Source: a virus. From it: a DNA stretch of 43,116 nt. Both the position numbers and the translations under genes were made by a program. Every line of letters begins with the position of its first letter. Positions within the stretch are counted from its first letter, which is position 1. This document shows positions 1-43,116 of the stretch, piece after piece. The stretch is from the IMG/VR virus record IMGVR_UViG_3300030444_000009. One strand, written 5' to 3'. Below the pieces are notes generated by a model, which saw nothing but the letters and a program-made list of their open reading frames with translations, searched no databases and had not been told where the DNA came from.

Positions 1-99
1 CAGGTTTGAGCCCTGCCGGGAATGCCATTTGCGTGCCCTGTGAGGGGGCTGCGCAGATAGCCGGGCATCTGGCGGCGAAAGTTCCGGATGCAGCGGCGC
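1..99. repeat. Terminal overlap identical to 43018-43116. Implies a circular or circularly permuted 43,017-bp unit.
   Basis: 99/99 identity read directly at both window ends. Bases 1-27 repeat the 3' part of the tRNA-Trp that starts at 42969. Confidence 0.95.
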
Positions 100-161
100 T
101 CCACCCGTTTACGTTGTCCGAAAAACTGAATGTACGGAGCGCTGCTTATTTTGATAATTTG

Positions 162-6709: not shown

Positions 6710-6785
6710 GCCGTTTTCGCACAACTGGCAGTGCTCCCGGCTCATAACCGGGTAGTTGCAGGTTCGAGCCCTGCAAGCGGCACCA
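6710..6785 (+). tRNA. tRNA with CAT anticodon (Met elongator-type or Ile2-lysidine type), CCA encoded
   Basis: Hand-folded: acceptor GCCGTTT/AAGCGGC; D arm GCAC-AACTGGCA-GTGC; anticodon arm CCCGG-CTCATAA-CCGGG; variable TAGTT; T arm GCAGG-TTCGAGC-CCTGC; discriminator A; CCA. Confidence 0.85.
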
Positions 6786-10156: not shown

Positions 10157-10629
10157 TGATCCTTACCATCAATCTTGACCCCGTGGAAGCCCTGCCCAAG
10201 CTGTATGACGCGGTGGACGGCATCACCCGCATGATCATGGACGCAAAGGACAACGTGGACAACCCGGAGACCAAAGCCGCCCGGGAGACCATCGTTGCCA
10301 ACGCCATGAAGCTGCTGGGTGCAGAGCCTGCCGAAACCGCAGAGGGCAAGAAAAAGCTGACCCCGCGCGAGTTTGCGCTGGCTGCGCTGGACTTTATTAA
10401 GCCCCTGATGAAGCTTGACCCGCAGCGCACCATGAACGCCCTGCACCAGTTGTACACGCTGGAAAAGGGCGAGAAGGACACCTTGCCCAAGGCATTCACC
10501 TCGCTTACCAAGTCCGTGATGCAGGAGGATATGCAGGATTTTTTGTCATCGCTGGCCGACTTGAACGGCCTGAGTTTTGGCACTACCTCTGCCGCGCCGA
10601 CCTCCAGCATCTCCGCGCCTACGGAATAA
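10156..10629 (+). CDS. Tail assembly chaperone (G-like)
   Basis: 157 aa, acidic, between major tail and tape measure. Contains a slippery heptamer near its 3' end. Confidence 0.6.
   Translation: MILTINLDPVEALPKLYDAVDGITRMIMDAKDNVDNPETKAARETIVANAMKLLGAEPAETAEGKKKLTPREFALAALDFIKPLMKLDPQRTMNALHQLYTLEKGEKDTLPKAFTSLTKSVMQEDMQDFLSSLADLNGLSFGTTSAAPTSSISAPTE
10539..10545 (+). promoter_or_regulatory. Candidate -1 programmed frameshift site T-TTT-TTG
   Basis: Zero frame reads GAT TTT TTG. The -1 frame is open from here to the TGA at 10896-10898. Confidence 0.5.
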
Positions 10630-10898
10630 AGTATTTCGTCTGGTTTGTCATCAGCGAGATGCGCGAACGCCACCGCACAAAGGCATACCAGCTGTATACG
10701 GCTGATATGCTTTTTCTTTGTGCTGTATCGCTGGGGCAGCAAGTGGAGCAGTCCTTCAGCGAGATCATGGCAGAGTATGACAAGCCGCTATCTGAGCGCC
10801 GACACGAAACAACACTGGAAGAAGCGCAGGCGTGCTGGGAAAAGACGCTTGCAGACAGTAAAAAAGCCGCAGAGCAGAACGGAGGTGGTGAGACCTGA
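10539..10898 (+). CDS. T-like extension of the tail assembly chaperone (G-T fusion via -1 frameshift; the track lists 10659-10898 as a separate ORF)
   Basis: The -1 frame relative to 10156-10629 has no stop between 10539 and 10898. No convincing RBS precedes ATG 10659. Confidence 0.5.
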   Translation, partial: FFVIAGRLERPEFWHYLCRADLQHLRAYGIKYFVWFVISEMRERHRTKAYQLYTADMLFLCAVSLGQQVEQSFSEIMAEYDKPLSERRHETTLEEAQACWEKTLADSKKAAEQNGGGET

Positions 10899-10912
10899 AT
10901 ATTTTTAATTTG

Positions 10913-13603
10913 ATGGCCACTTTGGGGCTTGATACCTCCGAGTATGAGCAGGGCATCGAGCAGGCCAGAAAAGAGACGCAAAGCGCCGCAAACTCGCTGA
11001 ACCGCAGCGCAAACACCGCCGGGAGCGGCGTTTCTGGCATGGCAAGCCAGTTTGCAGCAGCCAGCGCAAAAGCGACTGTCCTTGCAAATATGCTTACTTC
11101 GCTTGGGACAAAGGCGGTAGGCCTTGCAAAGGGCTTTGTGGAGATGGGCATTTCTTATAATGCCCAGATAGAAAAGTACACCACCGGCTTTACCAATATG
11201 TTGGGCAGCGCACAGGCCGCGCAGGAAGCCATGCAGGCTATTCAGGAGGACGCAGCCCGCACCCCGTTTGACGTGGCATCCCTGACGCAAGCAAACCAGT
11301 TGCTCATCAGCGCAGGCGAAAATGCTGCGTATTCCCGCAAGGTCATCAATGCACTGGGCGATGCAGTTTCCGCAACTGGCGGCGGCAACGCCGAACTATC
11401 CCGCATGGCTGCAAACCTGCAGCAGATCGCAAACGTGGGCAAGGCTGCAACGATAGACATCAAGCAGTTTGCCTATGCCGGCATCAATATCTATCAGATT
11501 TTGGCAGACTACACCGGCAAATCGGTGCAGGAAGTCCAGAATATGACCATTAGTTACGACCTTCTTTCACAGGCGCTCATAGCAGCCAGCGAGGAGGGCG
11601 GGCGTTACTATAACGCCATGGACACCCAGAGCCAGACCATGAACGGGCGTATATCCACCCTGAAGGATAACGTCAGCCAGCTGGCTGGACTTATGACCGG
11701 CGACCTTTCCTCCGGCATCGGCGTTGTGATAGGCCACCTGAACGACATGGTTGTCGCAGCGCAGGAAGCCTACAAGGAAGACGGCTGGAAGGGTCTCGGG
11801 AACGCAATCCTTGAACTGGATAATCCCATCAGTGCTATCATCAAAAAGTTTGGGCAGCTTGGCAGCGCGGCCGTTAGTGCACTGGATAAGGCAAGCTACT
11901 ATCTGAACAAGGCACTGGGAAAAAACGCTTATTCTGGTTACGACAGCTACGAGGACTACAGAGAGGATCAGCAAAAGCAAAGCAACAGGAACCGGCTGCG
12001 GCAGAACGCTCTTTCCGGCAAAAGCGTAAGCAATAAAAGCTGGTCTGAGCGACAAGCAGAAGCAGCGGCCGCGAGCGGCGGCAGCTCCATCGTCACAAGC
12101 CCTTCCAGTTCTTCCGGCAAGAGCACCGGCACAAAATCCAAGACTGAAACCGTCATAGCGTCCGTGTCGCACACCGCCACCACCACCGCACAGAACGCGC
12201 TTGGCGCCGTGACTACAAGCGTTGAGACCTTGCAGGAGAAGGTAAAGGACGCAGCGGGCAACATCAAAGACCGCGTGACCGAGACCACCACCGAGACCGG
12301 TAAAGAGATGGTCAACGGTGTTGCTACTACCTATACGCTTGTGACCAAGAAAGTTACGGACGCGAACGGCAAGATAAGCACCACGACCAAGAAGGTCTAC
12401 GCCGATATGTCCAAGACCCTGCTTGGCACCCTGACCACCATTGCAGAAAAGACCTTCAACGGCATCACCACCACTACGCAGCAGGCTGTGGAGACCTACG
12501 CGGACGGCAGCCAGCACATCAAAACAACCGCCACCGAGACCGGCGAGCGCATTGTGGACGGCGTGCGGCAGACCTACACCAAGGTCATCAGCTACATTGA
12601 CGGCGTGCAGGACAAGGTGACAGAGACCGCGCAGAACATCGACAAGAGCATCAAGGCGACCCAAAAGCGCATTGAAGAGAATCTGAGCAAAGCACAGCAG
12701 CAGCTTAACAGCGGTATCTTCAAGATTGGAAAAAATCTGTATACCGACCTGAAAAATCAGGACTGGGCAGCGCTTGGGCTGGATATCGTCAACATGATGT
12801 GGGGCGAGGTGTCGCAGGAGCAGCGCGAAGTCCTGTCTGACTGGGCAAACAAGGCGCTGGAAGCCATCAACGAAGCTTATTCCGGCGGCGGTCTGAGCGA
12901 GGCGTTCAATGCTTTTAAGCAGATCATGTCCAACGGCATCAAAGCAGATGCGGACGGCGTTACCACAAGCGTAGACGGGCTGAGCAAAGTGTTTCAGGAT
13001 TTGGGCATCAACGTTTCCGATGTCGGCAGCAAGATCATGGGTGTGCTGAACACCATTGGCTCCGGCATGGGCAGCTTTGCCCTCAACGCGGGCACGGATA
13101 TTGCAAACCTTGCCGGGAGCATGGGCAGCCTTGGCACGATCGCCGAGGGCGCAGGCGGGCTGATCGCAAAGGTGGGCAGCCTGATTATGGCAAACCCGGA
13201 GGTCGCCGCGATCATCGCCATTGTGGCGGGCGTGGTGGCGCTGGGCGTGGCGCTGTGGGCAAAGTTTGGCAAGGGCAAGAGCAGCGGCACTACCAGCACG
13301 CAGCACGTGCACTCCTACAAGGATATTCAGGACGCTTACTGGTACGGCAACGAGCGTGCTTTTGCAGGCTACGACTACCGCACCGACCCCTACGTCATGA
13401 ACCCGGACAACAACGCCATGCTGACCTATCAGGCCAAAATGCAGGCGCAGATGGAGCGGCTCTACGGTGTGGTGGAGAAATATCTGCCGGAAGCCGGAAA
13501 CAGCGTGATTGCGCTTGACGGCGAGCAGGTAGGCCGCATCATTACCCCCAGCGTAAACAGAAGCCTGGGAGACCTTACGGTGCTGAGCGAACGAGGGAAC
13601 TGA
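10913..13603 (+). CDS. Tape measure protein
   Basis: About 896 aa, Ala/Gly/Thr-rich with a C-terminal hydrophobic segment (AAIIAIVAGVVALGVALWA). Canonical position. Confidence 0.85.
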   Translation: MATLGLDTSEYEQGIEQARKETQSAANSLNRSANTAGSGVSGMASQFAAASAKATVLANMLTSLGTKAVGLAKGFVEMGISYNAQIEKYTTGFTNMLGSAQAAQEAMQAIQEDAARTPFDVASLTQANQLLISAGENAAYSRKVINALGDAVSATGGGNAELSRMAANLQQIANVGKAATIDIKQFAYAGINIYQILADYTGKSVQEVQNMTISYDLLSQALIAASEEGGRYYNAMDTQSQTMNGRISTLKDNVSQLAGLMTGDLSSGIGVVIGHLNDMVVAAQEAYKEDGWKGLGNAILELDNPISAIIKKFGQLGSAAVSALDKASYYLNKALGKNAYSGYDSYEDYREDQQKQSNRNRLRQNALSGKSVSNKSWSERQAEAAAASGGSSIVTSPSSSSGKSTGTKSKTETVIASVSHTATTTAQNALGAVTTSVETLQEKVKDAAGNIKDRVTETTTETGKEMVNGVATTYTLVTKKVTDANGKISTTTKKVYADMSKTLLGTLTTIAEKTFNGITTTTQQAVETYADGSQHIKTTATETGERIVDGVRQTYTKVISYIDGVQDKVTETAQNIDKSIKATQKRIEENLSKAQQQLNSGIFKIGKNLYTDLKNQDWAALGLDIVNMMWGEVSQEQREVLSDWANKALEAINEAYSGGGLSEAFNAFKQIMSNGIKADADGVTTSVDGLSKVFQDLGINVSDVGSKIMGVLNTIGSGMGSFALNAGTDIANLAGSMGSLGTIAEGAGGLIAKVGSLIMANPEVAAIIAIVAGVVALGVALWAKFGKGKSSGTTSTQHVHSYKDIQDAYWYGNERAFAGYDYRTDPYVMNPDNNAMLTYQAKMQAQMERLYGVVEKYLPEAGNSVIALDGEQVGRIITPSVNRSLGDLTVLSERGN

Positions 13604-18954: not shown

Positions 18955-20019
18955 TTGCGAGGAGAGCTGAAAAAATCAGTGCAAGAAGAAGAAATAATAA
19001 TCGGGTTCGATGCCCTGTATAATTCCGAGGGCAAGTGCGCCAAAGGCGTGTGCCGCAAGGCAAGCGTTGGACGGTTTCACCTGTTTCGGATGGACGAGAT
19101 CCTGAAACTCCAAAAGGAGCTCGCGACAGGTACATACAAGGCACGGCCAACAATCAAAGTTAGAATCACCTATCCCAAGCCCCGCACAGCGGTTGCGAAT
19201 GGCTTTCGGGATAGGGTATACCAGCGCTCTCTCAACGACAATGCTGTTTATCCAGCAATGACACGGAGCTTCATCCGGCAAAACGCGGCCTGTCAGACCG
19301 GCAAAGGTACCGACTGGGCGCGCAAGCAGGTCAAGCTCATGATGGAGCGCGAATACCGGCAGCACGGCGCTGATGGCTATGTGCTGTTGGTAGATATCCG
19401 GCACTATTACGACACGATGCCCCATGACGTGGCAAACCGCTGCTTTGAGCGGCATCTGCCGCCAAGTGTGCATAACCGCGTGCGTGAGGTTCTGGATCGT
19501 CAATATACCGGCGAGGCCGGTTATAATCCGGGCAGCCAGATGGTGCAGCTTGCCGGGATCTCGGTGCCCGACCCCATAGATCACTACATCAAGGAGCGCC
19601 TGCGGGCGAAAAAGTACGTCCGTTTTATGGATGATAGCCTCATCATCCACCACGACAAGGCACGGCTTGAGGAGTGGCGGGAGGCGATCCGCGCCCGGTA
19701 CGCTGCCGATGGCATGGAGCTGCACCCGACCAAGACCAAGATCGTCAGGCTAAAGGATGGATTCCGTTTTCTAGGTTTCATCTACCGCTTGACCCCGGCG
19801 GGCAAGGTCGTTATGACCGTTGACCCGCAGAATGTCAAGGCCGAGCGCAAGCGCCTGTTTCGGCTTGCCCAGCTCATCAAGGCAGGAGAGAAACCGGCAT
19901 CTGCCCTGTATGAGCAGTATGGATCATGGAAAGCCCATGCCGCTAAAGGCAACTCGCAGCAGCTGCTGCAGCGCATGGATCAATACGTTAAAACTCTGCT
20001 GGAGGGGATAACTACATGA
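18955..20019 (+). CDS. DGR reverse transcriptase
   Basis: YVRFMDDSLII (YxDD box), GSQMVQLAGI motif, LLVDIRHYYDTM. 354 aa, positioned after the TR. Exact start uncertain (TTG 18955 or GTG 18979). Confidence 0.85.
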   Translation: MRGELKKSVQEEEIIIGFDALYNSEGKCAKGVCRKASVGRFHLFRMDEILKLQKELATGTYKARPTIKVRITYPKPRTAVANGFRDRVYQRSLNDNAVYPAMTRSFIRQNAACQTGKGTDWARKQVKLMMEREYRQHGADGYVLLVDIRHYYDTMPHDVANRCFERHLPPSVHNRVREVLDRQYTGEAGYNPGSQMVQLAGISVPDPIDHYIKERLRAKKYVRFMDDSLIIHHDKARLEEWREAIRARYAADGMELHPTKTKIVRLKDGFRFLGFIYRLTPAGKVVMTVDPQNVKAERKRLFRLAQLIKAGEKPASALYEQYGSWKAHAAKGNSQQLLQRMDQYVKTLLEGITT

Positions 20020-22251: not shown

Positions 22252-22326
22252 AAAAAATCCCCCACTTTGCCTACAAAGCACCCCGCGTGGCACGCAGGGC
22301 TTCGGCAAAGCAGGGGATTTTTTTGT
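22252..22326. terminator. Long hairpin terminator downstream of the minus-strand cassette
   Basis: AAAAAATCCCC-A-CTTTGCC...GGCAAAG-C-AGGGGATTTTTTT. Confidence 0.6.
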
Positions 22327-26797: not shown

Positions 26798-27934
26798 TCA
26801 CCCTTGAGCCTTCCTGAATGCAGCGGTCGTTGCAGCCGCCAAATCTTCTCGCTGGCCCTGCAATTCATGATGGTACACGCCGGAAGTATCCATGTTCTTG
26901 CTGTGACCAACCAGCATTTTTAGCTGGCTGTCAGTCAGGACGCTTGATTCAACGCTAACAAAGGTGTGCCGCAGCTCGTAAAGTGAGACTTTCGGCTCAA
27001 GCCCGTTTGCTTCCTGATACGATTCCCAGCGGCGATAGAGCGTATGCTCTGACGGAATCTGAAACAGCGGCGTATTGTATTGTAGCAGTATGCCTTGAGC
27101 CTTTAGGAGCTGTACCTGCGCCTCATAAGCATCCCGTGCTTCCTTGCCCATGTCAAAAGAGCGGATGGCGTTTTCATTCTTTCCGGTGGTCTGCTCCCGG
27201 TGCACGTTGATGCTGCGCCGAAGGCTGACCGTGTTCCCCTTGATGTCACCATACCAGAGACCAATCAGCTCCCCGGGGCGCAGGCCGGTCGCAACTGCAA
27301 ATCGGTAGGCGTAGATATATTCATCAAATACCAGTTTTCCATAGTAGGTGCGGGTGTCTACGCTAAACAGAACCTTCAGGGCGGTGGGCTGCAAGATCGT
27401 GCGTTTCCCCATCCTGGCATTCTTCGGGATAGCCAGGTCGGGGTGGAGCGTGGTGTACCGGTTTTTCCTGCACCACTTGACAAAGGCGGTTTCCGCAGCC
27501 CGGATCGTCATAAGCGTCTTTCGGCTCAACGGCTGGTTTGAGATGGGCTTGCGCTGGTTCTTTTTCTGTGAGCGCTTCCGGAACGAAACGTCGATTGCCT
27601 TTTGAAGATCGCCCTCGGTCAGCTCGTCAATGCGGATATTCCCACAGGTCGGCAGGATGTAGCAGTCTCCGTAACGCTGGCATTGTGTCACATAGGACGT
27701 CCCGCAGGTGAGCTTCAGCTCTTCTACCCACTCTGAATAGAGTGCAGCCACCTTCTTCCTGCCGTCCCGAATGCTATCATCAAGCCATGCATCCGCTTTT
27801 GCGTTTGCTTCCCGTTGTCCTGTCCGGCCCGGCGTGCTGCTGTAAAACCGTTTGCGGGTGCCGTTCTTCTGAACCGCGATGCACCAGCGCTTTTCCTTTT
27901 CCACCCAAAATGCCGTGTTGACCCGTTTTTTCAT
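26798..27934 (-). CDS. int: Tyrosine integrase
   Basis: ATGLRPGELIGL (Arg), YELRHTFVS (His-x-x-Arg box) and GHSKNMDTSGVYHH (catalytic Tyr). ATG 27934 with GGAGGTGG RBS; the track ORF is over-extended to 28093. Confidence 0.9.
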   Translation of the reverse strand: MKKRVNTAFWVEKEKRWCIAVQKNGTRKRFYSSTPGRTGQREANAKADAWLDDSIRDGRKKVAALYSEWVEELKLTCGTSYVTQCQRYGDCYILPTCGNIRIDELTEGDLQKAIDVSFRKRSQKKNQRKPISNQPLSRKTLMTIRAAETAFVKWCRKNRYTTLHPDLAIPKNARMGKRTILQPTALKVLFSVDTRTYYGKLVFDEYIYAYRFAVATGLRPGELIGLWYGDIKGNTVSLRRSINVHREQTTGKNENAIRSFDMGKEARDAYEAQVQLLKAQGILLQYNTPLFQIPSEHTLYRRWESYQEANGLEPKVSLYELRHTFVSVESSVLTDSQLKMLVGHSKNMDTSGVYHHELQGQREDLAAATTAAFRKAQG

Positions 27935-28101
27935 AAAATCCACCTCCATACACAAGAGTACACTGTGCCGCTGCCCTTGGGACGGCTGCGCTTTTTTCTT
28001 TGCTGCGGAACGGCTTCCGGCTGCTTCTTCCCGAACCACGGACAAAAAGAAGCACCATCCGGGATCTCCTTCCGGCAGCATGATCTCACGCATTTCATGG
28101 C

Positions 28102-36966: not shown

Positions 36967-36998
36967 CATAAACAAAAACTAAGGAGGAAATGCAAACA

Positions 36999-37934
36999 AT
37001 GAGCGTAAAAGGATATAAAGTTTTTAATTCTGACTGGACGTGTCACGGCAAACAGTATTCTTGCCCGGGAATCTTTGAAGAATTTGTAAGTCCGTCTGTC
37101 TGCAATGTGGGTATGCACTTCTGCAAGAATGCTGCCGACTGTTTCCGTTACTATGATTTTGACCCGAACAACCACGTTGCTGAAGTGATCGCCCACGGCA
37201 CGGTTGTAGAGGGCGAGAATAAGTGTGCAACGAACAAGTTGGAAATCGTGCGGGAAATCCCTTGGGCTGAAGTCCTTGAGGTTGTGAACACGGGAAAGGA
37301 TTGCACTGGACGTTGCAACAGCGGCAACTGGAATAGCGGCAACTGGAACAGCGGCGACTGGAACAGCGGCGACTGGAACAGCGGCAACAGGAACAGCGGC
37401 GACTGGAACAGTGGCAACAGGAACAGCGGCAACTGCAACAGCGGCGACAGGAACAGCGGCAACTGGAACAGCGGCAACAGGAACAGCGGCGACTGGAACA
37501 GTGGCAACAGCAACAGCGGCAACTGCAACAGCGGCGACAGGAACAGCGGCAACTGCAACAGCGGCGACTGGAACGCTACATCCTTTTCCAATGGCTGTTT
37601 CAATACGGTATCGCCCAAAATCTATATGTTCAACAAGCCTACCGACTGGACGTTTGAGCGGTGGTTTAACTGCCGTGCCCGGCGTTTGCTGAGCGATATT
37701 GACGATTGCCAGCTTGAATACGTTTATCTGTCTGATATGACCGATGAAGAAAAGGCAGCGCACCCTGAAGCTGAAACGACTGGCGGTTATTTGAAGGAGC
37801 GCACCACAGCGGACAACGCCCGGAAGTGGTGGGCGGGGCTTAGTGCCGATGATCGAAACGTTATACTCAGTTTGCCGAACTTCGACGCGGCGATTTTCAA
37901 GGAAATCACGGGGATTGACGTAAGCAACGGCTGA
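36999..37934 (+). CDS. DUF7666-like N-terminal domain protein with an NSG(N/D)(W/R/C/S) pentapeptide repeat array
   Basis: N-terminus GYKVFNSDWTCHGKQYSCPG...GMHFC pattern, then 17 pentapeptide units encoded by a 15-bp tandem repeat. Confidence 0.7.
   Translation: MSVKGYKVFNSDWTCHGKQYSCPGIFEEFVSPSVCNVGMHFCKNAADCFRYYDFDPNNHVAEVIAHGTVVEGENKCATNKLEIVREIPWAEVLEVVNTGKDCTGRCNSGNWNSGNWNSGDWNSGDWNSGNRNSGDWNSGNRNSGNCNSGDRNSGNWNSGNRNSGDWNSGNSNSGNCNSGDRNSGNCNSGDWNATSFSNGCFNTVSPKIYMFNKPTDWTFERWFNCRARRLLSDIDDCQLEYVYLSDMTDEEKAAHPEAETTGGYLKERTTADNARKWWAGLSADDRNVILSLPNFDAAIFKEITGIDVSNG
37317..37571 (+). repeat. 17 tandem copies of a 15-bp unit (AACAGCGGCRACWGS)
   Basis: Counted directly. A 90-bp (6-unit) higher-order duplication matches 37391-37470 to 37481-37560 at 78/80. 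Confidence 0.95.
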
Positions 37935-41293: not shown

Positions 41294-41857
41294 ATGAATA
41301 ACCGAAGAACGGCGGCTAGCATTCGCCGCAGCTATACCGGTGCCCGAAGCCGCGCGGAAGGTGCAGGTTTTGAGGCCATTATCAGCTCCGCTTGCGACTA
41401 CTACCGCGCAATCGGGCGGGCAGACATCGAGAAAACCCCGGAGCCAATGAAGCCCCTCGGTGGTGCAGATCGCTCCGGCAGATTCATCGCCTGCTACACC
41501 AAGCAGGCCCAGCCAGACTACAAAGGCGTTCTCTCAGGCGGAAGAGCGGTCGTTTTCGAGGCGAAGCACACCGACACCGGTCGTTTGTTGTACGACCGCG
41601 TATCAGCCGAGCAAGCCGCCTGTTTGCGCCGGATATCGCAGCTGGGCGGTATCGCGTTCGTTCTGTGCTCGTTCAATGGCCGGGAGTTCTACCGCATTCC
41701 GTGGCCGATCTGGGAGGACATGAAGAACGTATTTGGCCGGAAGTACATCACCCCGGCGGATTTGGCAGAGTACCGTATCCGCGTTGCGGTGCCCGGAGTG
41801 TTGCTATTTTTGGAGGGAGTAAAGGAGAAAAAAGATGGCTCGAAGATGGACACCTGA
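41294..41857 (+). CDS. recU: RecU-like Holliday junction resolvase
   Basis: GAGFEAIISSACDYYR...PDYKGVLSGGRAVVFEAKHT...EQAACLRRISQLGGIAFVL matches the RecU pattern. Confidence 0.65.
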   Translation: MNNRRTAASIRRSYTGARSRAEGAGFEAIISSACDYYRAIGRADIEKTPEPMKPLGGADRSGRFIACYTKQAQPDYKGVLSGGRAVVFEAKHTDTGRLLYDRVSAEQAACLRRISQLGGIAFVLCSFNGREFYRIPWPIWEDMKNVFGRKYITPADLAEYRIRVAVPGVLLFLEGVKEKKDGSKMDT

Positions 41858-42341
41858 AAGTGAGAATGAAAAGCCTCCCCAGAATAAAAAAGCGCAGCTA
41901 GTCAGAGGGTGGTTTGAGCGCCTGCCCCGGATGCGGGAACAGATACAGCAGCAGGAAGAACGCATTGTAGATCTGCAGTGCATTGCTACCGCGACCACAT
42001 CTAACGTCTCATCTGCACCCGGACGTTCTGGAACCAGCGATAAGGTGGGAAATGGAAGCACTGCAATCGTTGAAGCAAAGGAAAAGCTCGCTGCACTCAA
42101 GTGCGAGTACGTAGAAATGCAGAAAGCGGCAATTGATACGGCATACCTGCTGAACGCTGACCAAGCGTCAATCCGCCGCAGCAAGTGCATCATCCTGTGC
42201 TATGTAGAGGGAAAGACGCGCGAGCAGGCCGCTGCTGAGGTGGGCTTTGCACAGGCACATACGGCATCCAGAGCAATTACAGCCGGGTTTGAAGCCCTTG
42301 CGGAGATCTGGGAAGCAACGCCTTTTTGCAATTTTGACTAA
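41835..42341 (+). CDS. Late-gene transcriptional regulator, sigma-70 region-4-like (DUF1492/ArpU-like position)
   Basis: C-terminal SKCIILCYVEGKTREQAAAEVGFAQAHTASRAITAGFEAL HTH. Last gene before the tRNA cluster and terminase. Confidence 0.55.
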   Translation: MARRWTPESENEKPPQNKKAQLVRGWFERLPRMREQIQQQEERIVDLQCIATATTSNVSSAPGRSGTSDKVGNGSTAIVEAKEKLAALKCEYVEMQKAAIDTAYLLNADQASIRRSKCIILCYVEGKTREQAAAEVGFAQAHTASRAITAGFEALAEIWEATPFCNFD

Positions 42342-42540
42342 AGCGCATAAAAATCACGCATTTTTTTGTATTGCTTCGGGTATGTATGCGGTATGTACAG
42401 ACACCATGAAAAAGTGATTCAATAATATCATCGGCAAAGCCGTAAAGGCAAACCGATCTGCGCAGTCTCCGAAACGAATCCCCCTCCTCCCAAGGCTTGA
42501 CATGCATTTTTCTTCCTCTCGTTTCGCGGGCTGCTTCTAT

Positions 42541-42677
42541 GCCGTTATAGCTCAACTGGCAGAGCGCCGCCCATTTAAGGCGGGACAACGCTGGTGACAC
42601 ATCTCGGACATCACTGCGCACTTAACCAATGCGCATATACAGACTTGATGGTGCCGGTTCGAATCCGGTTAACGGCT
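42541..42677 (+). tRNA. tRNA-like gene with canonical acceptor, D and T arms but a 69-nt insertion at the variable-region position and an atypical anticodon loop CATTTAA
   Basis: GCCGTTA/TAACGGC (7/7); D arm GCTC-AACTGGCA-GAGC; CCGCC-CATTTAA-GGCGG; insert 42584-42652; T arm GCCGG-TTCGAAT-CCGGT. Confidence 0.5.
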
Positions 42678-42886
42678 CCGACACGCTGCTCTCCCGAAGC
42701 AGCGACCACCTGACGCATGGGCTGACATCCCGATTGTGGCTGCGTGTAGAGTGGCAGGGTATCCTTACCTGTCCTCACAACCTCCGCACGCACCGGAGGC
42801 CACATAATCCGTACACCGGTTTCCATAAACCCCCGGCAGGATGTGCGTCAACAGAACCAGCATGGAAACGTGCTGGTTTTTCTTTT
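42678..42886 (+). ncRNA. Structured non-coding transcript segment between tRNA-like genes, ending in a strong terminator
   Basis: Hairpins at 42684-42704 (7-bp stem, loop CTCCCGA), about 42753-42773 (GGCAGG/CCTGTC) and 42781-42799 (CCTCCG-CACGCAC-CGGAGG). No plausible ORF. Confidence 0.35.
42855..42886 (+). terminator. Rho-independent terminator
   Basis: AACCAGCA-TGGAAACG-TGCTGGTT then TTTCTTTT. Confidence 0.8.
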
Positions 42887-42893
42887 GTTATAT

Positions 42894-42962
42894 GCCGCCT
42901 GAGCGCAGTTTGGAGCGCGGCGTGTGTGTGTAGACACGGCTGGTTCGATTCCAAGGGCGGCT
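42894..42962 (+). pseudogene. Degenerate tRNA-like element
   Basis: Acceptor GCCGCCT/GGGCGGC, D arm GCGC-AGTTTGGA-GCGC, stem CGTGT/ACACG with 8-nt loop GTGTGTAG inside a (GT)5 run, T-loop TTCGATT with only a 3-4 bp stem, 1-nt variable region. Confidence 0.35.
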
Positions 42963-42968
42963 TTTTAT

Positions 42969-43044
42969 ATTCCCGTAGTTCAAGTGATGGAACAGCGGTC
43001 TCCAAAACCGCAGGCTGCAGGTTTGAGCCCTGCCGGGAATGCCA
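42969..43044 (+). tRNA. tRNA-Trp (CCA anticodon), CCA end encoded
   Basis: Acceptor ATTCCCG/CGGGAAT; D arm GTTC-AAGTGATG-GAAC; anticodon arm GCGGT-CTCCAAA-ACCGC; variable AGGCT; T arm GCAGG-TTTGAGC-CCTGC; discriminator G; CCA. Confidence 0.85.
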
Positions 43045-43116
43045 TTTGCGTGCCCTGTGAGGGGGCTGCGCAGATAGCCGGGCATCTGGCGGCGAAAGTT
43101 CCGGATGCAGCGGCGC
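43018..43116. repeat. Terminal overlap identical to 1-99
   Basis: 99/99 identity. Confidence 0.95.

What the first reader, a model, noticed from the sequence alone, without database searches (positions are those of the whole stretch)
42541..42677. tRNA gene with canonical ends but a 69-nt internal insertion and an anticodon loop lacking U33
42541-42583 folds as acceptor 5' strand GCCGTTA, D arm GCTC-AACTGGCA-GAGC and a 5-bp stem CCGCC/GGCGG closing the 7-nt loop CATTTAA. That loop has A at position 33, which is almost invariably U.

42653-42677 is a textbook T arm (GCCGG-TTCGAAT-CCGGT) plus acceptor 3' strand TAACGGC, complementary 7/7 to the 5' strand.

Between them lie 69 nt (42584-42652), where tRNAs have 4-5 nt (at most about 20 in class II). 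The insert carries two hairpins of its own: GTGA-N13-TCAC (42594-42614, loop containing GG) and TGCGCA-CTTAACCAA-TGCGCA (42615-42635, 9-nt loop containing TTA/TAA), followed by 17 nt.

It is too short for a group I intron and is not at the canonical 37/38 intron site. Possibilities are a disrupted tRNA, a tRNA with an unusual intervening element, or a tRNA-scaffolded regulatory RNA. It sits in a phage tRNA cluster between the late regulator and the terminase.
Basis: seen in the sequence. Interest (0 to 1): 0.7.

Follow-up and report, generated by a model that had tools for sequence, protein, structure and literature searches.

The report
Phage tRNA mimic with giant variable arm
This is not a broken tRNA gene but one member of a conserved family of gut-phage tRNA-shaped RNAs that carry a large folded extra domain and a deliberately abnormal anticodon arm, most likely used to counter bacterial defences that attack tRNAs, although its function has not been tested.

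Summary
Window 42541-42677 scores as a full tRNA (Rfam, 47 bits) with a 69-nt insertion in the variable region and the anticodon loop CAUUUAA, a tRNA-Lys(UUU) loop with U33 changed to A.

It is not a pseudogene. More than 150 gut-phage contigs and a Faecalibacterium prophage carry homologs. Across them 95.8% of base-pair cells stay paired, and 19 of 35 pairs show changes on both sides, including 7 of the 8 pairs at the base of the insert.

No copy lacks the insert, and none on this scaffold has U33. The anticodon switches: UUU (Lys), GUU (Asn, again with A33), and a third paralog with GAU (Ile) or GGU (Thr) whose anticodon helix is 8-9 bp long. All of these read ANN codons. One phage can carry two paralogs, or an odd copy plus a normal tRNA-Lys.

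The gene is an accessory cassette, present in 46 of 77 phages sampled through TerS. The discriminator base varies. No ribozyme or consistent intron model fits.

Best reading (about 0.4): a non-decoding mimic of the tRNA anticodon arm, acting as a decoy or nuclease-proof stand-in against tRNA-targeting immunity. I classify it as a new variant of non-canonical tRNA-like RNA.

The parts
42530..42540 (+). 5' leader motif GCTGCTTCTAT, directly in front of the tRNA 5' end
   Evidence: The same motif, GCTGCTT(A/C)TAT, precedes the element in every genomic context. In L001 it also precedes another tRNA-like gene. I infer a processing leader or cassette boundary.
42541..42547 (+). Acceptor stem, 5' strand (GCCGUUA)
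   Evidence: Pairs 7/7 with 42670-42676. Across the family, pair 5:68 is UG, UA or CG and pair 6:67 is CG, UA or UG.
42550..42565 (+). D arm GCUC-AACUGGCA-GAGC, with A14, A15, G18, G19 and A21
   Evidence: Rfam alignment. The stem is 100% paired, with one CG-to-UA double change in the family.
42567..42583 (+). Anticodon arm CCGCC-CAUUUAA-GGCGG. A33 is at 42573 and the UUU anticodon at 42574-42576.
   Evidence: The loop is identical in 117 of 117 copies sampled without reference to this arm, and the stem changes are compensatory. The loop equals the normal phage tRNA-Lys loop CUUUUAA with U33 changed to A. Relatives have GAGUUAA or AAGUUAA instead.
42584..42599 (+). 5' linker of the variable domain, GACAACGCUGGUGACA, the most conserved part of the insert
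   Evidence: Consensus GACAACNNUGGUGAYA in insert types A, B and C. It is still recognisable (UAACAUUGGCGAUAC) in the diverged third paralog.
42600..42603 (+). Basal stem of the variable domain, 5' strand (CAUC)
   Evidence: Pairs with 42647-42650. Type A has CCAC/GUGG at these positions, which gives two double compensatory changes. Family-wide, 7 of 8 basal-stem pairs show changes on both sides.
42604..42614 (+). Internal loop, 5' side, containing UCAC (42611-42614), which may pair with GUGA (42594-42597)
   Evidence: Conserved in sequence in types A and B; type C has UUAC. Column 73 varies A/C/U in close relatives, so the pairing is only tentative.
42615..42635 (+). Apical hairpin UGCGCA-CUUAACCAA-UGCGCA
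   Evidence: A 6-bp stem in all types. Its fourth pair is A.C (most copies), G-C or A-U. The loop is 9 nt with a conserved A-R-C-C-A core.
42636..42646 (+). Internal loop, 3' side (UAUACAGACUU)
   Evidence: The most variable stretch among type B copies.
42647..42650 (+). Basal stem of the variable domain, 3' strand (GAUG)
   Evidence: Partner of 42600-42603.
42651..42652 (+). GU junction before the T stem. It occupies the place of tRNA positions 46 and 48, or alternatively pairs with 42597-42598.
   Evidence: Nearly invariant. RNAalifold pairs the equivalent bases in type C. Pairing of column 58 with column 111 is C-G or U.G in all copies (read from the alignment).
42653..42669 (+). T arm GCCGG-UUCGAAU-CCGGU
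   Evidence: 100% paired. Pair 51:63 is UA (42), CG (33) or UG (5) across the family.
42670..42677 (+). Acceptor stem, 3' strand (UAACGGC), plus discriminator U (42677). No CCA is encoded.
   Evidence: The discriminator is A, U, G or C in different copies.

Best explanation
Window 42541-42677 encodes a stable, tRNA-shaped RNA of an accessory family found in temperate Faecalibacterium-type gut phages.

**Shown.**
- It keeps the tRNA body: acceptor, D and T arms and the conserved core bases.
- It carries a 68-87-nt folded domain in place of the variable loop: a conserved single-stranded linker, a basal stem, an internal loop and an apical hairpin.
- Its anticodon arm displays a genuine ANN-reading anticodon loop (here Lys UUU) but departs from normal decoding geometry. 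In the Lys and Asn paralogs, A replaces the near-universal U33. In the Ile/Thr paralog, the anticodon helix is 8-9 bp.

**Inferred mechanism.**
1. The RNA is transcribed with the tRNA cluster at the head of the late operon and trimmed by RNase P and the host 3' processing enzymes.
2. It then acts as a mimic of particular host tRNAs rather than as a normal decoder.
3. It binds a host factor that reads the anticodon arm of ANN-decoding tRNAs. The most likely factor is a defence nuclease of the kind that cuts tRNA-Lys, tRNA-Thr or tRNA-Asn (PrrC, PARIS AriB or Schlafen type).
4. The RNA is either not cleaved or not depleted, so phage translation is protected.
5. The A33 change or the long helix, together with the bulky variable domain, keeps the mimic out of the ribosome and away from productive cleavage.
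For: **It is a real structured RNA family.**
- The Rfam tRNA model gives 47 bits.
- Family-wide, 95.8% of pair cells are paired against 33-40% in slid controls, and 19 of 35 pairs change on both sides.

**The insert is obligatory.** There are 0 copies without it. Three insert types share one architecture.

**A33 is selected.**
- 117 of 117 copies sampled independently of the arm have CAUUUAA.
- There are 0 copies with another base at 33.
- A33 is retained when the anticodon switches to GUU.

**Anticodon identity matters and evolves.**
- UUU, GUU, GAU and GGU are seen, all with U36-A37.
- Two paralogs occur in one phage in L391, L342 and L053.

**It is not redundant with a decoder.** 11 loci carry an odd Lys-type copy within 1.5 kb of a canonical tRNA-Lys(UUU).

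**Signs that it is not an ordinary aminoacylated decoder.**
- The discriminator varies A/U/G/C and no CCA is encoded, whereas many normal tRNAs in the same clusters end in A-CCA.
- The third paralog has an 8-9 bp anticodon helix.

**It behaves like an accessory gene.** It is present in 46 of 77 TerS-anchored relatives, with exactly empty slots, or a normal tRNA-Thr(UGU), in others.

**Literature context.**
- tRNA-Lys(UUU) is cut by PrrC, PARIS AriB and bacterial Schlafen.
- Phage tRNAs with altered anticodon arms neutralise these systems (PMC12409363, PMC13056530, PMC10264068).
- The canonical accessory tRNAs of these phages include Lys(UUU) and Thr(UGU).
Against: - Nothing here shows expression, processing, charging or any interaction.
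- No tRNA-targeting nuclease has been identified in the Faecalibacterium host.
- Known phage counter-measures are ordinary, decoding-competent tRNAs with one or two stem changes. None needs a 69-nt domain, and the decoy idea does not specifically explain that domain.
- The tRNA body, the T arm and (in the third paralog) an encoded A73-CCA end are what a chargeable tRNA would have, so a decoding or amino-acid-carrier role is not excluded.
- The match between the anticodon set and the PARIS target set is suggestive, not statistical.
- Many contigs are near-identical gut samples, so the counts are not independent events.
Confidence: 0.4

Rival explanations
1. It is a working, nuclease-proof decoder. 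The RNA is charged by LysRS (AsnRS in the GUU version) through its anticodon and is used on the ribosome. A33, the G39-G40 stem sequence and the bulky variable domain only serve to stop a host anticodon nuclease from binding or cutting.
For: - The tRNA core and T arm are intact and the Rfam score is above threshold.
- With the insert removed in silico, ARAGORN calls it tRNA-Lys(ttt).
- Class IIb synthetases recognise mainly the anticodon (established knowledge). Anticodon switching with the scaffold kept is what a decoder family would show.
- Class II tRNAs show that the ribosome tolerates a variable arm.
- T5 tRNA-Lys resists AriB through changes at positions 39 and 41 (PMC12409363). Here 39-41 is GGC, not UCA.
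Against: - U33 is close to universal in elongator tRNAs and forms the U-turn.
- The domain is 3-4 times longer than any known variable arm.
- The discriminator is not conserved and CCA is not encoded.
- 11 loci also carry a canonical tRNA-Lys(UUU), so the odd copy is not simply the phage's Lys decoder.
- The homologous third paralog has an 8-9 bp anticodon helix, which does not fit the fixed anticodon-to-acceptor distance.
- AAN codon use in the phage is unremarkable.
Confidence: 0.2
2. It is a non-translational tRNA: either an amino-acid carrier or a regulator. Either it is charged and donates Lys or Asn to a non-ribosomal reaction, as Fem-type transferases or phage Mu Mom do. Or it acts uncharged on a host system that senses tRNA anticodons, such as T-box leaders, synthetases or the t6A37 and other modification enzymes. 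A33 and the big domain exclude it from the ribosome.
For: - All anticodons seen have U36-A37, the signature of t6A37 substrates and of ANN decoders.
- The anticodon loop is under strong constraint while the discriminator is not.
- There is precedent for tRNA use outside translation by a phage enzyme (Mom uses Gly-tRNA; PMC13219725).
- From my own knowledge: dedicated non-proteinogenic tRNAs exist (Staphylococcus tRNA-Gly; Bacillus cereus tRNA-Other).
Against: - No candidate partner enzyme turned up among the window's proteins I scanned (transferase, synthetase-like, ligase or CCA-adding enzyme).
- A variable discriminator argues against both efficient charging and T-box pairing.
- Switching the amino-acid identity in the same slot, and carrying several identities in one phage, is odd for a dedicated donor.
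Confidence: 0.17
3. The 69 nt are an intervening element (a mini-intron or self-cleaving ribozyme) that is removed or cut after transcription. That would yield either a normal-length tRNA or two tRNA halves.
For: - The insert is compact, structured and flanked by a stem that brings its ends together.
- Its helix order (linker strand, basal strand, partner of the linker, hairpin, basal partner) recalls the nested P1/P2 arrangement of HDV-like ribozymes.
- HDV-like theta ribozymes are known next to gut-phage tRNAs (PMC10879173).
- ARAGORN calls the region only when introns are allowed.
Against: - No Rfam ribozyme or intron family matches, even at E <= 10.
- Only 2 nt separate the two strands where HDV-like ribozymes need P3 and L3 (alignment).
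- The linker pairing itself is not supported by covariation.
- ARAGORN's intron models give six different isotypes and splice points across homologs.
- Bacteria lack the archaeal/eukaryal tRNA splicing endonuclease (established knowledge).
- Removing the insert would still leave A33.
- The three insert types differ in length by up to about 18 nt (68-70 nt against 82-87 nt) but keep the same junctions. This fits a structural arm better than a catalytic core.
Confidence: 0.06
4. It is a decaying tRNA pseudogene, or merely an RNase P/Z processing signal (tRNA punctuation) in the late-operon leader, with no role for the anticodon or the insert.
For: - It lies in a leader region with other degenerate tRNA-like genes.
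- About 21 related phages do without it.
Against: - The anticodon loop is invariant within each paralog.
- All helices, including the insert's, show compensatory changes.
- No insert-less or U33 versions exist.
- Loop types and insert types occur in several combinations.
Confidence: 0.03

Closest known systems
Class II tRNAs and tRNA-Sec / allo-tRNAs (long variable arm)
   Same: The extra helix emerges between positions 45 and 48 of an otherwise normal cloverleaf. Its base is a covarying stem, and the tRNA core bases are kept.
   Different: - Known variable arms are roughly 10-24 nt and form a single hairpin. They belong to Leu, Ser, Tyr or Sec (PMC7609411).
- This one is 68-87 nt, with a conserved single-stranded linker of about 13-16 nt, an internal loop and an apical hairpin.
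- It sits on Lys-, Asn-, Ile- and Thr-type anticodons.
- It is combined with A33 or an 8-9 bp anticodon helix.
[quoted passage not shown]
   Same: - It is phage-encoded, accessory, and clustered with other tRNAs.
- The isoacceptors are the same (Lys UUU, Asn GUU; the canonical neighbours include Lys UUU and Thr UGU).
- The changes are concentrated in the anticodon arm (PMC12409363, PMC10264068).
   Different: - The known examples are canonical, decoding-competent tRNAs of about 76 nt with point changes at the cleavage site.
- None lacks U33 or carries an added domain.
- Their protective effect has been shown experimentally. Here it is only inferred.
HDV-like theta ribozymes associated with gut-phage tRNAs
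   Same: Small structured RNAs in tRNA clusters of human-gut Caudoviricetes, near late genes (PMC10879173). There is a superficial similarity in helix order.
   Different: - Theta ribozymes lie immediately 3' of the tRNA, not inside it.
- They have a P3/L3 element and a catalytic C in J4/2.
- The insert has no room for P3/L3 and no Rfam HDV match.
tmRNA and other tRNA-like RNAs with large insertions
   Same: A tRNA-like acceptor/T-arm module carries a large structured insertion.
   Different: - tmRNA has no anticodon arm and contains a tag ORF and several pseudoknots.
- ARAGORN's tmRNA search and Rfam find nothing of that kind here.
- This RNA keeps complete D and anticodon arms.
Phage T4 'species 1 / species 2' stable RNAs and non-proteinogenic tRNAs (Staphylococcus tRNA-Gly, Bacillus cereus tRNA-Other). 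Recalled from my own knowledge, not tested here.
   Same: Stable RNAs of unknown or non-translational function, encoded in tRNA clusters or resembling tRNAs. The T4 RNAs are about 120-140 nt.
   Different: - No sequence comparison was possible with these tools.
- None of them is known to combine a Lys or Asn anticodon loop lacking U33 with a giant variable domain.

Membership tests
tRNA (Rfam RF00005) | Covariance-model score at or above the gathering score (29 bits) over the whole model | tested here: met
   47.1 bits, model positions 1-71, E = 4e-7. Homologs score 38-50 bits.
tRNA (canonical elongator) | 7-nt anticodon loop with U33 (U-turn) on a 5-bp stem | tested here: not met
   The loop is 7 nt on a 5-bp stem, but position 33 is A in all 117 sampled copies and in all Asn-type copies. 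The third paralog has U33 but an 8-9 bp helix.
tRNA (canonical elongator) | Variable region of 4-5 nt (class I) or about 10-24 nt (class II) | tested here: not met
   69 nt here, and 68-87 nt across the family.
tRNA (canonical elongator) | Detected by a standard tRNA gene finder | tested here: not met
   ARAGORN with default settings calls it in none of 121 loci. With introns allowed it gives mutually inconsistent models.
tRNA (canonical elongator) | Aminoacylation and use on the ribosome | not testable with these tools
   Indirect only: the discriminator is variable and no CCA is encoded.
Class II tRNA | Long variable arm as a single stem-loop on Leu, Ser, Tyr or Sec isoacceptors | tested here: not met
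   The position of the arm is the same. However, the arm is multi-segment and 3-4 times longer, and the anticodons are UUU, GUU, GAU and GGU.
HDV-like / theta ribozyme | Nested double pseudoknot with P1, P2, P3/L3, P1.1 and P4, and a catalytic C in J4/2 | tested here: not met
   Only 2 nt lie between the basal-stem 5' strand and the UCAC segment, where P3/L3 would have to sit. There is no Rfam HDV hit at E <= 10.
HDV-like / theta ribozyme | Self-cleavage in vitro | not testable with these tools
   No assay was possible.
Other small self-cleaving ribozymes (hammerhead, twister, pistol, hatchet) and group I introns | Match to the family covariance model | tested here: not met
   Permissive Rfam scans of 42480-43116 and of the contiguous cluster in L391 list only tRNA-clan matches and noise.
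tRNA with a canonical or archaeal-type intron | A consistent intron position and splice junctions across homologs | tested here: not met
   ARAGORN -i gives Val, Cys, Leu, Gln, Lys and Glu with different intron positions for ten homologs. A bulge-helix-bulge motif was not tested formally.
tmRNA | tRNA-like domain without an anticodon arm, plus a tag reading frame | tested here: not met
   ARAGORN's tmRNA search finds none, and a full anticodon arm is present.
Phage anti-defence tRNAs | Phage-encoded tRNA of an isoacceptor that immune nucleases target, altered in the anticodon arm | tested here: met
   Lys(UUU) and Asn(GUU) loops with the U33A change, and 39-41 = GGC. The targets are listed in PMC12409363 and PMC13056530.
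Phage anti-defence tRNAs | Resists cleavage and rescues infection in the presence of the defence system | not testable with these tools
   No experiment was possible, and no host nuclease has been identified.
Prophage att site derived from a tRNA gene | A partial tRNA copy at the prophage ends or next to the integrase | tested here: not met
   There is a single internal copy in the Faecalibacterium prophage contig (L122 and L124 are the same site). The integrase is about 14 kb away, at 26798-28093.

The most novel reading that the evidence does not exclude
These RNAs are a new class of phage counter-defence molecule: RNA decoys built on a tRNA scaffold. Each displays the anticodon arm of a specific ANN-decoding tRNA (Lys, Asn, Ile or Thr) in a form that cannot be cleaved or used for decoding. 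It then uses a dedicated folded variable domain to trap or block a tRNA-targeting immune nuclease or sensor. Phages swap anticodons and cassettes to track the specificity of the host's defences.
Probability: 0.33. Interest if true: 0.85.

Novelty: new variant of a known kind. Interest (0 to 1): 0.72.

Why it matters
Phage tRNAs have recently been recognised as weapons against bacterial immune systems that cut tRNAs. Every known example is an ordinary tRNA with a few point changes.

This family would extend that repertoire. It keeps the tRNA shape but breaks two near-universal rules: U33, and a short variable region or a fixed anticodon-helix length. It also adds a conserved domain about as large as the rest of the molecule.

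If it is a decoy, it would be an RNA-only inhibitor of tRNA-directed immunity. It would also be a ready-made probe for finding such systems in Faecalibacterium, an abundant human-gut genus that is hard to study.

If instead it decodes, it would show that the ribosome tolerates far larger tRNA appendages, and loss of U33, than is assumed. That would matter for tRNA engineering.

There is also a practical point. Standard tRNA finders miss these genes, so phage tRNA repertoires are being under-counted.

Tried and rejected
- **ARAGORN.** Default settings give no call in 121 loci. With introns allowed it gives calls that are inconsistent between homologs, which I rejected as artefacts.
- **Known RNA families.** Rfam at gathering threshold and at E <= 10 on the region, and on a contiguous cluster in a relative, finds only tRNA.
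- **HDV-like / theta ribozyme fold.** The helix order is partly similar, but there is no room for P3/L3 and the linker helix lacks covariation.
- **Pseudogene or simple insertion.** Rejected by the conservation pattern and by zero insert-less or U33 copies.
- **att site.** There is a single internal copy in the prophage.
- **Ochre suppressor** (reading UUA at positions 35-37). 11 of 30 ORFs end in TAA, the window's long ORFs read through in the standard code, and the third paralog does not fit.
- **Shifty tRNA for the tail-chaperone frameshift.** There is no A-rich slippery site in 10500-10960, and the only candidate is T TTT TTG.
- **Codon supplementation.** AAN codon usage is unremarkable.
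- **Insert as a mobile element found elsewhere.** The insert alone, and the diverged paralog, have no BLAST match in 50,697 GenBank phage records. All non-tRNA matches to the linker pattern were chance hits in coding sequence.
- **Loose IUPAC scans.** Two of them were swamped by chance matches and had to be filtered in a script.
- **Extra tertiary pairs.** A mutual-information scan gave only lineage-level signals.
- **Partner proteins.** I searched for an RNA ligase, CCA-adding enzyme or synthetase-like protein in the window and found none.
- **Literature.** I found no description of such tRNAs.
Full report
**1. The observation**

- A 7-bp acceptor stem: GCCGUUA with UAACGGC.
- A D arm, GCUC-AACUGGCA-GAGC.
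- A 5-bp anticodon stem, CCGCC/GGCGG, closing the loop CAUUUAA.
- A textbook T arm.
- 69 nt (42584-42652) between the anticodon stem and the T stem.

The Rfam tRNA covariance model matches the whole stretch end to end. It scores 47.1 bits against a gathering score of 29, with E = 4e-7 for the window, and treats the 69 nt as one insertion in the variable region. ARAGORN with default settings calls only tRNA-Met (6710-6785) and tRNA-Trp (42969-43044) in the window. When I delete the insert in silico, ARAGORN calls the body tRNA-Lys(ttt).

**2. It is a family, not an accident**

A GenBank gut-phage fragment (MT839005) carries a 136-nt homolog. It has the same anticodon arm, a compensated acceptor stem and a diverged insert of the same length.

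In the species-representative genome set it hit only a prophage in a Faecalibacterium MAG and a 24-kb contig binned as Oxalobacter. The host is therefore probably Faecalibacterium.

The window itself is a complete, circularly assembled temperate siphovirus-type genome.
- Bases 1-96 repeat 43021-43116.
- It encodes TerS, TerL, an SPP1-type portal, an integrase, a CI-like repressor, Rha/ANT, a DnaD-like protein, RecT, RecU and a reverse transcriptase.
- It has no cultured close relative. TerL is at most 55% identical to any named phage.

**3. Structure**

The copies fall into three insert types that share one architecture.
- Types A and B are 68-70 nt. The window is type B.
- Type C is 82-87 nt.
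- Each has a conserved linker GACAACNNUGGUGAYA, then a basal stem, an internal loop, and an apical 6-bp hairpin with a 9-nt loop whose core is A-R-C-C-A.
- Two nucleotides (G, U) then lead into the T stem.

The pair statistics support all the nested helices.

| Alignment | Cells paired | Slid controls | Pairs changed on both sides |
|---|---|---|---|
| 71 unique type A/B copies | 95.2% | 31-40% | 7 of 40 |
| 81 distinct rows of 100 aligned copies, all types and paralogs, model-based | 95.8% | 33-40% | 19 of 35 |

In the family-wide alignment, 7 of the 8 basal-stem pairs change on both sides. RNAalifold on 18 type C copies independently returns a cloverleaf with one long, three-segment variable arm.

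In the window the basal stem is CAUC (42600-42603) with GAUG (42647-42650). Type A has CCAC/GUGG at the same positions, which is two double compensatory changes.

The fourth pair of the apical stem is A.C in most copies, G-C in some and A-U in a few. This is how a tolerated A+.C wobble behaves.

Its sequence is conserved, but the pairing is not established.
- The A of UCAC varies to C or U in close relatives.
- Type C has UUAC at that place.
- The one variable linker position (column 58) fits pairing with G111 (C-G or U.G in all copies) better than pairing with column 70 (C.A in 52 of 71).

A scan for further covarying columns gave only lineage-level signals.

The tRNA core bases U8, A14, A15, G18, G19 and A21 are invariant, as is the G of the G-U junction before the T stem; its U is nearly invariant. 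I therefore infer an L-shaped body with a large appendage at the usual variable-arm position.

**4. The anticodon arm**

Canonical tRNA-Lys(UUU) genes in related phages have the loop CUUUUAA. The odd loop CAUUUAA is that loop with U33 changed to A.

To avoid circularity I sampled copies through a pattern taken from the insert linker. All 117 tRNA-like hits had CAUUUAA. The few stem changes kept the pairing: C28:G42 to A:U, and C28 to U.

Tighter scans gave three results.
- No copy has another base at 33, whatever the anticodon.
- No copy lacks the insert.
- No A33 copy has a base other than U at position 35.

The anticodon is nevertheless not fixed.
- Fifteen IMG/VR contigs, with the same flanks and layout as the window, have GAGUUAA (A33 with GUU, an Asn anticodon) on insert types B or C.
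- Metagenome copies add AAGUUAA.
- A third, more diverged paralog of 143 nt (L446, L342, L053) keeps the linker, basal stem and apical hairpin. It has a canonical loop with U33, CUGAUAC (Ile GAU) or CUGGUAC (Thr GGU).
- That loop sits on an 8-9 bp anticodon helix, and the gene has an encoded A73-CCA end.

All four anticodons read ANN codons and share U36-A37.

Paralogs coexist in single phages.

| Locus | Combination |
|---|---|
| L391 | Lys-type and Asn-type |
| L342 | Asn-type and Ile-type |
| L053 | Lys-type and Thr-type |

In addition, 11 loci have an odd Lys-type copy within 1.5 kb of a canonical tRNA-Lys(UUU).

**5. Genomic behaviour**

The element lies in a non-coding cluster between a transcriptional regulator (41835-42341, phrog_36) and TerS.
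- The motif GCTGCTT(A/C)TAT always precedes it directly.
- In most relatives an intrinsic terminator follows within about 20 nt.
- The discriminator base varies (A, U, G or C) and no CCA is encoded. Many canonical tRNAs in the same clusters end in A-CCA.

I fetched relatives through TerS, independently of the RNA. Covariance model R1 finds a full-length copy in 46 of 77 of these loci.
- About 21 loci with at least 2 kb of upstream sequence have none.
- Many of those show an exactly empty slot (...CTTAT|TTTGATATT...), and some have a canonical tRNA-Thr(UGU) there instead.
- The window has that downstream slot empty (around base 150) and carries its copy in an upstream slot.
- In MT839005 the upstream slot holds a different aberrant tRNA-like gene.

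So this is an accessory, shuffled cassette.

**6. What it is not**

- No ribozyme, intron or other Rfam family matches, even at E <= 10.
- HDV-like theta ribozymes, known beside gut-phage tRNAs, lie 3' of the tRNA and need a P3/L3 element. The insert has only 2 nt at that place (PMC10879173).
- ARAGORN's intron models give six different isotypes for ten homologs.
- It is not an att site.
- It is not a stop-codon suppressor: 11 of 30 ORFs end in TAA, and the window's long ORFs read through in the standard code.
- It is not linked to the tail-chaperone frameshift site.
- The insert alone has no match in GenBank phages.

**7. Most likely mechanism**

*Shown.* This is a conserved, structured, tRNA-shaped RNA gene family. 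Its anticodon loop is under strong constraint and its anticodon arm is aberrant in two different ways. It has an obligatory large variable domain. It uses only ANN-type anticodons, which switch. It is distributed as an accessory gene, and it is not redundant with a canonical tRNA-Lys.

*From the literature.*
- tRNA-Lys(UUU) is the recurrent target of PrrC, PARIS AriB and a bacterial Schlafen nuclease, all of which cut in the anticodon arm.
- Phage tRNAs with altered anticodon arms neutralise these systems (PMC12409363, PMC13056530, PMC10264068).

*Inferred.* The RNA is made with the late-operon tRNA cluster and is processed like a tRNA. It then serves as a mimic of specific host tRNAs. It occupies a nuclease or sensor that reads the anticodon arm, without being productively cleaved. 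A33 or the over-long helix, together with the bulky domain, keeps it out of translation. I put this at about 0.4.

The main rivals are listed below.

| Rival | Confidence |
|---|---|
| Nuclease-proof but genuinely decoding tRNA | 0.2 |
| Non-translational carrier or regulator acting on synthetases, T-boxes or t6A37 enzymes | 0.17 |
| Removable or self-cleaving insert | 0.06 |
| Pseudogene or mere processing signal | 0.03 |

The specific role of the variable domain is unexplained under every model.

**8. Comparison and novelty**

In where the extra arm sits, the RNA resembles class II tRNAs and tRNA-Sec. In context and isoacceptor choice, it resembles phage anti-defence tRNAs. It fails defining features of a canonical tRNA (U33, variable-region length, detection by a gene finder). 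It also fails those of class II tRNAs, HDV-like ribozymes, tmRNA and intron-bearing tRNAs.

I found no description of such tRNAs in the searchable literature. I classify it as a new variant of a known kind, a non-canonical tRNA-like RNA.

**Caveats**
- All functional statements are inferences.
- Many contigs are near-identical gut samples, so the counts are not independent events.
- The collection scans were capped, so the list of anticodons may be incomplete.

Noticed in passing
window 42892-42963 (+): A second aberrant tRNA-like gene lies 5 nt upstream of tRNA-Trp. It has a 7-bp acceptor stem, a D arm and a covarying 5-bp 'anticodon' stem (CGUGU/ACACG, UCAGC/GCUGG, CGUGG/CCACG). Its loops, however, are 6 or 9 nt and non-canonical, and its T stem is only 3-4 bp with a C.A mismatch. 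It is conserved in nearly all relatives. The only Rfam match is a weak tRNA-Sec hit (18 bits), and ARAGORN is silent.
   Followed up: partly
L001 (MT839005) 887-956: A third kind of aberrant tRNA-like gene: GCGAUAC...GUAUCGC acceptor stem, a normal T arm, and a Met/Ile2-like CUCAUAA motif inside a 10-nt loop. It is preceded by the same gggctgcttctat flank and occupies the slot where the window has the odd tRNA.
   Followed up: partly
window 43045-43116 continuing into 97-150: A conserved non-coding element of about 100-130 nt follows the CCA end of tRNA-Trp. In L446, L342 and L053 it follows the CCA end of the third odd-tRNA paralog. It has a covarying outer stem and a conserved hairpin, UCUGG-CGGCGAAAGUU-CCGGA. 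There is no Rfam match. My attempt to fit an HDV-like fold was not supported across relatives.
   Followed up: partly
window 42678-42890 (+): A conserved segment of about 210 nt lies downstream of the odd tRNA. It starts with the hairpin GCUGCU-CUCCCGA-AGCAGC and ends in an intrinsic terminator (42853-42880). It is also present after the Met-like tRNA-like gene in L001 and in all Asn-type loci. It may be another small RNA.
   Followed up: no
window ~140-160 (+): This is an empty cassette slot. GCGCTGCTTAT|TTTGATAATTTGACCGTTCGG equals the flanks that surround the odd tRNA in most relatives. The tRNA cassettes therefore move between at least two slots, bounded by the ...CTT(A/C)TAT motif.
   Followed up: partly
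window 1-96 and 43021-43116: A 96-nt terminal direct repeat. The window is a circularly closed assembly of a whole phage genome of about 43 kb.
   Followed up: yes
two IMG/VR relatives among L003-L121 (sequence listed): In these two relatives the tRNA-Trp(CCA) position is occupied by the same tRNA with anticodon CUA, an amber suppressor derived from tRNA-Trp. In the window, none of the 30 ORFs I tabulated ends in TAG (19 TGA, 11 TAA).
   Followed up: no
window 18955-20019 (+): A reverse-transcriptase gene (RVT_1, E = 1e-13) lies just downstream of the tail-gene region. It is probably part of a diversity-generating retroelement. I did not look for template and variable repeats.
   Followed up: no
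window 22256-22319 (-): A strong match to the Rfam DUF3800-VIII RNA motif (80.3 bits, full length) in the region between the lysis and lysogeny modules.
   Followed up: no
window 6710-6785 (+): A canonical tRNA-Met(CAU) gene lies inside the structural-gene module, away from the main tRNA cluster. Its acceptor and D arms (GCCGUUU...) resemble those of the other phage tRNAs.
   Followed up: no
related loci: [quoted passage not shown] They look like one tRNA lineage diversified by anticodon switching.
   Followed up: no
window 36990-37934 (+): A DUF7666 plus pentapeptide-repeat protein is encoded in the early region. Pentapeptide-repeat proteins can mimic DNA, so this is a possible anti-defence candidate.
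   Followed up: no
L055 1259-1379 (-): One copy of the odd tRNA (121 nt) lacks exactly the apical hairpin loop and its 3' strand. The deletion lies between the UGCACA and UGCGCA repeats. It may be a natural deletion variant or an assembly error.
   Followed up: no
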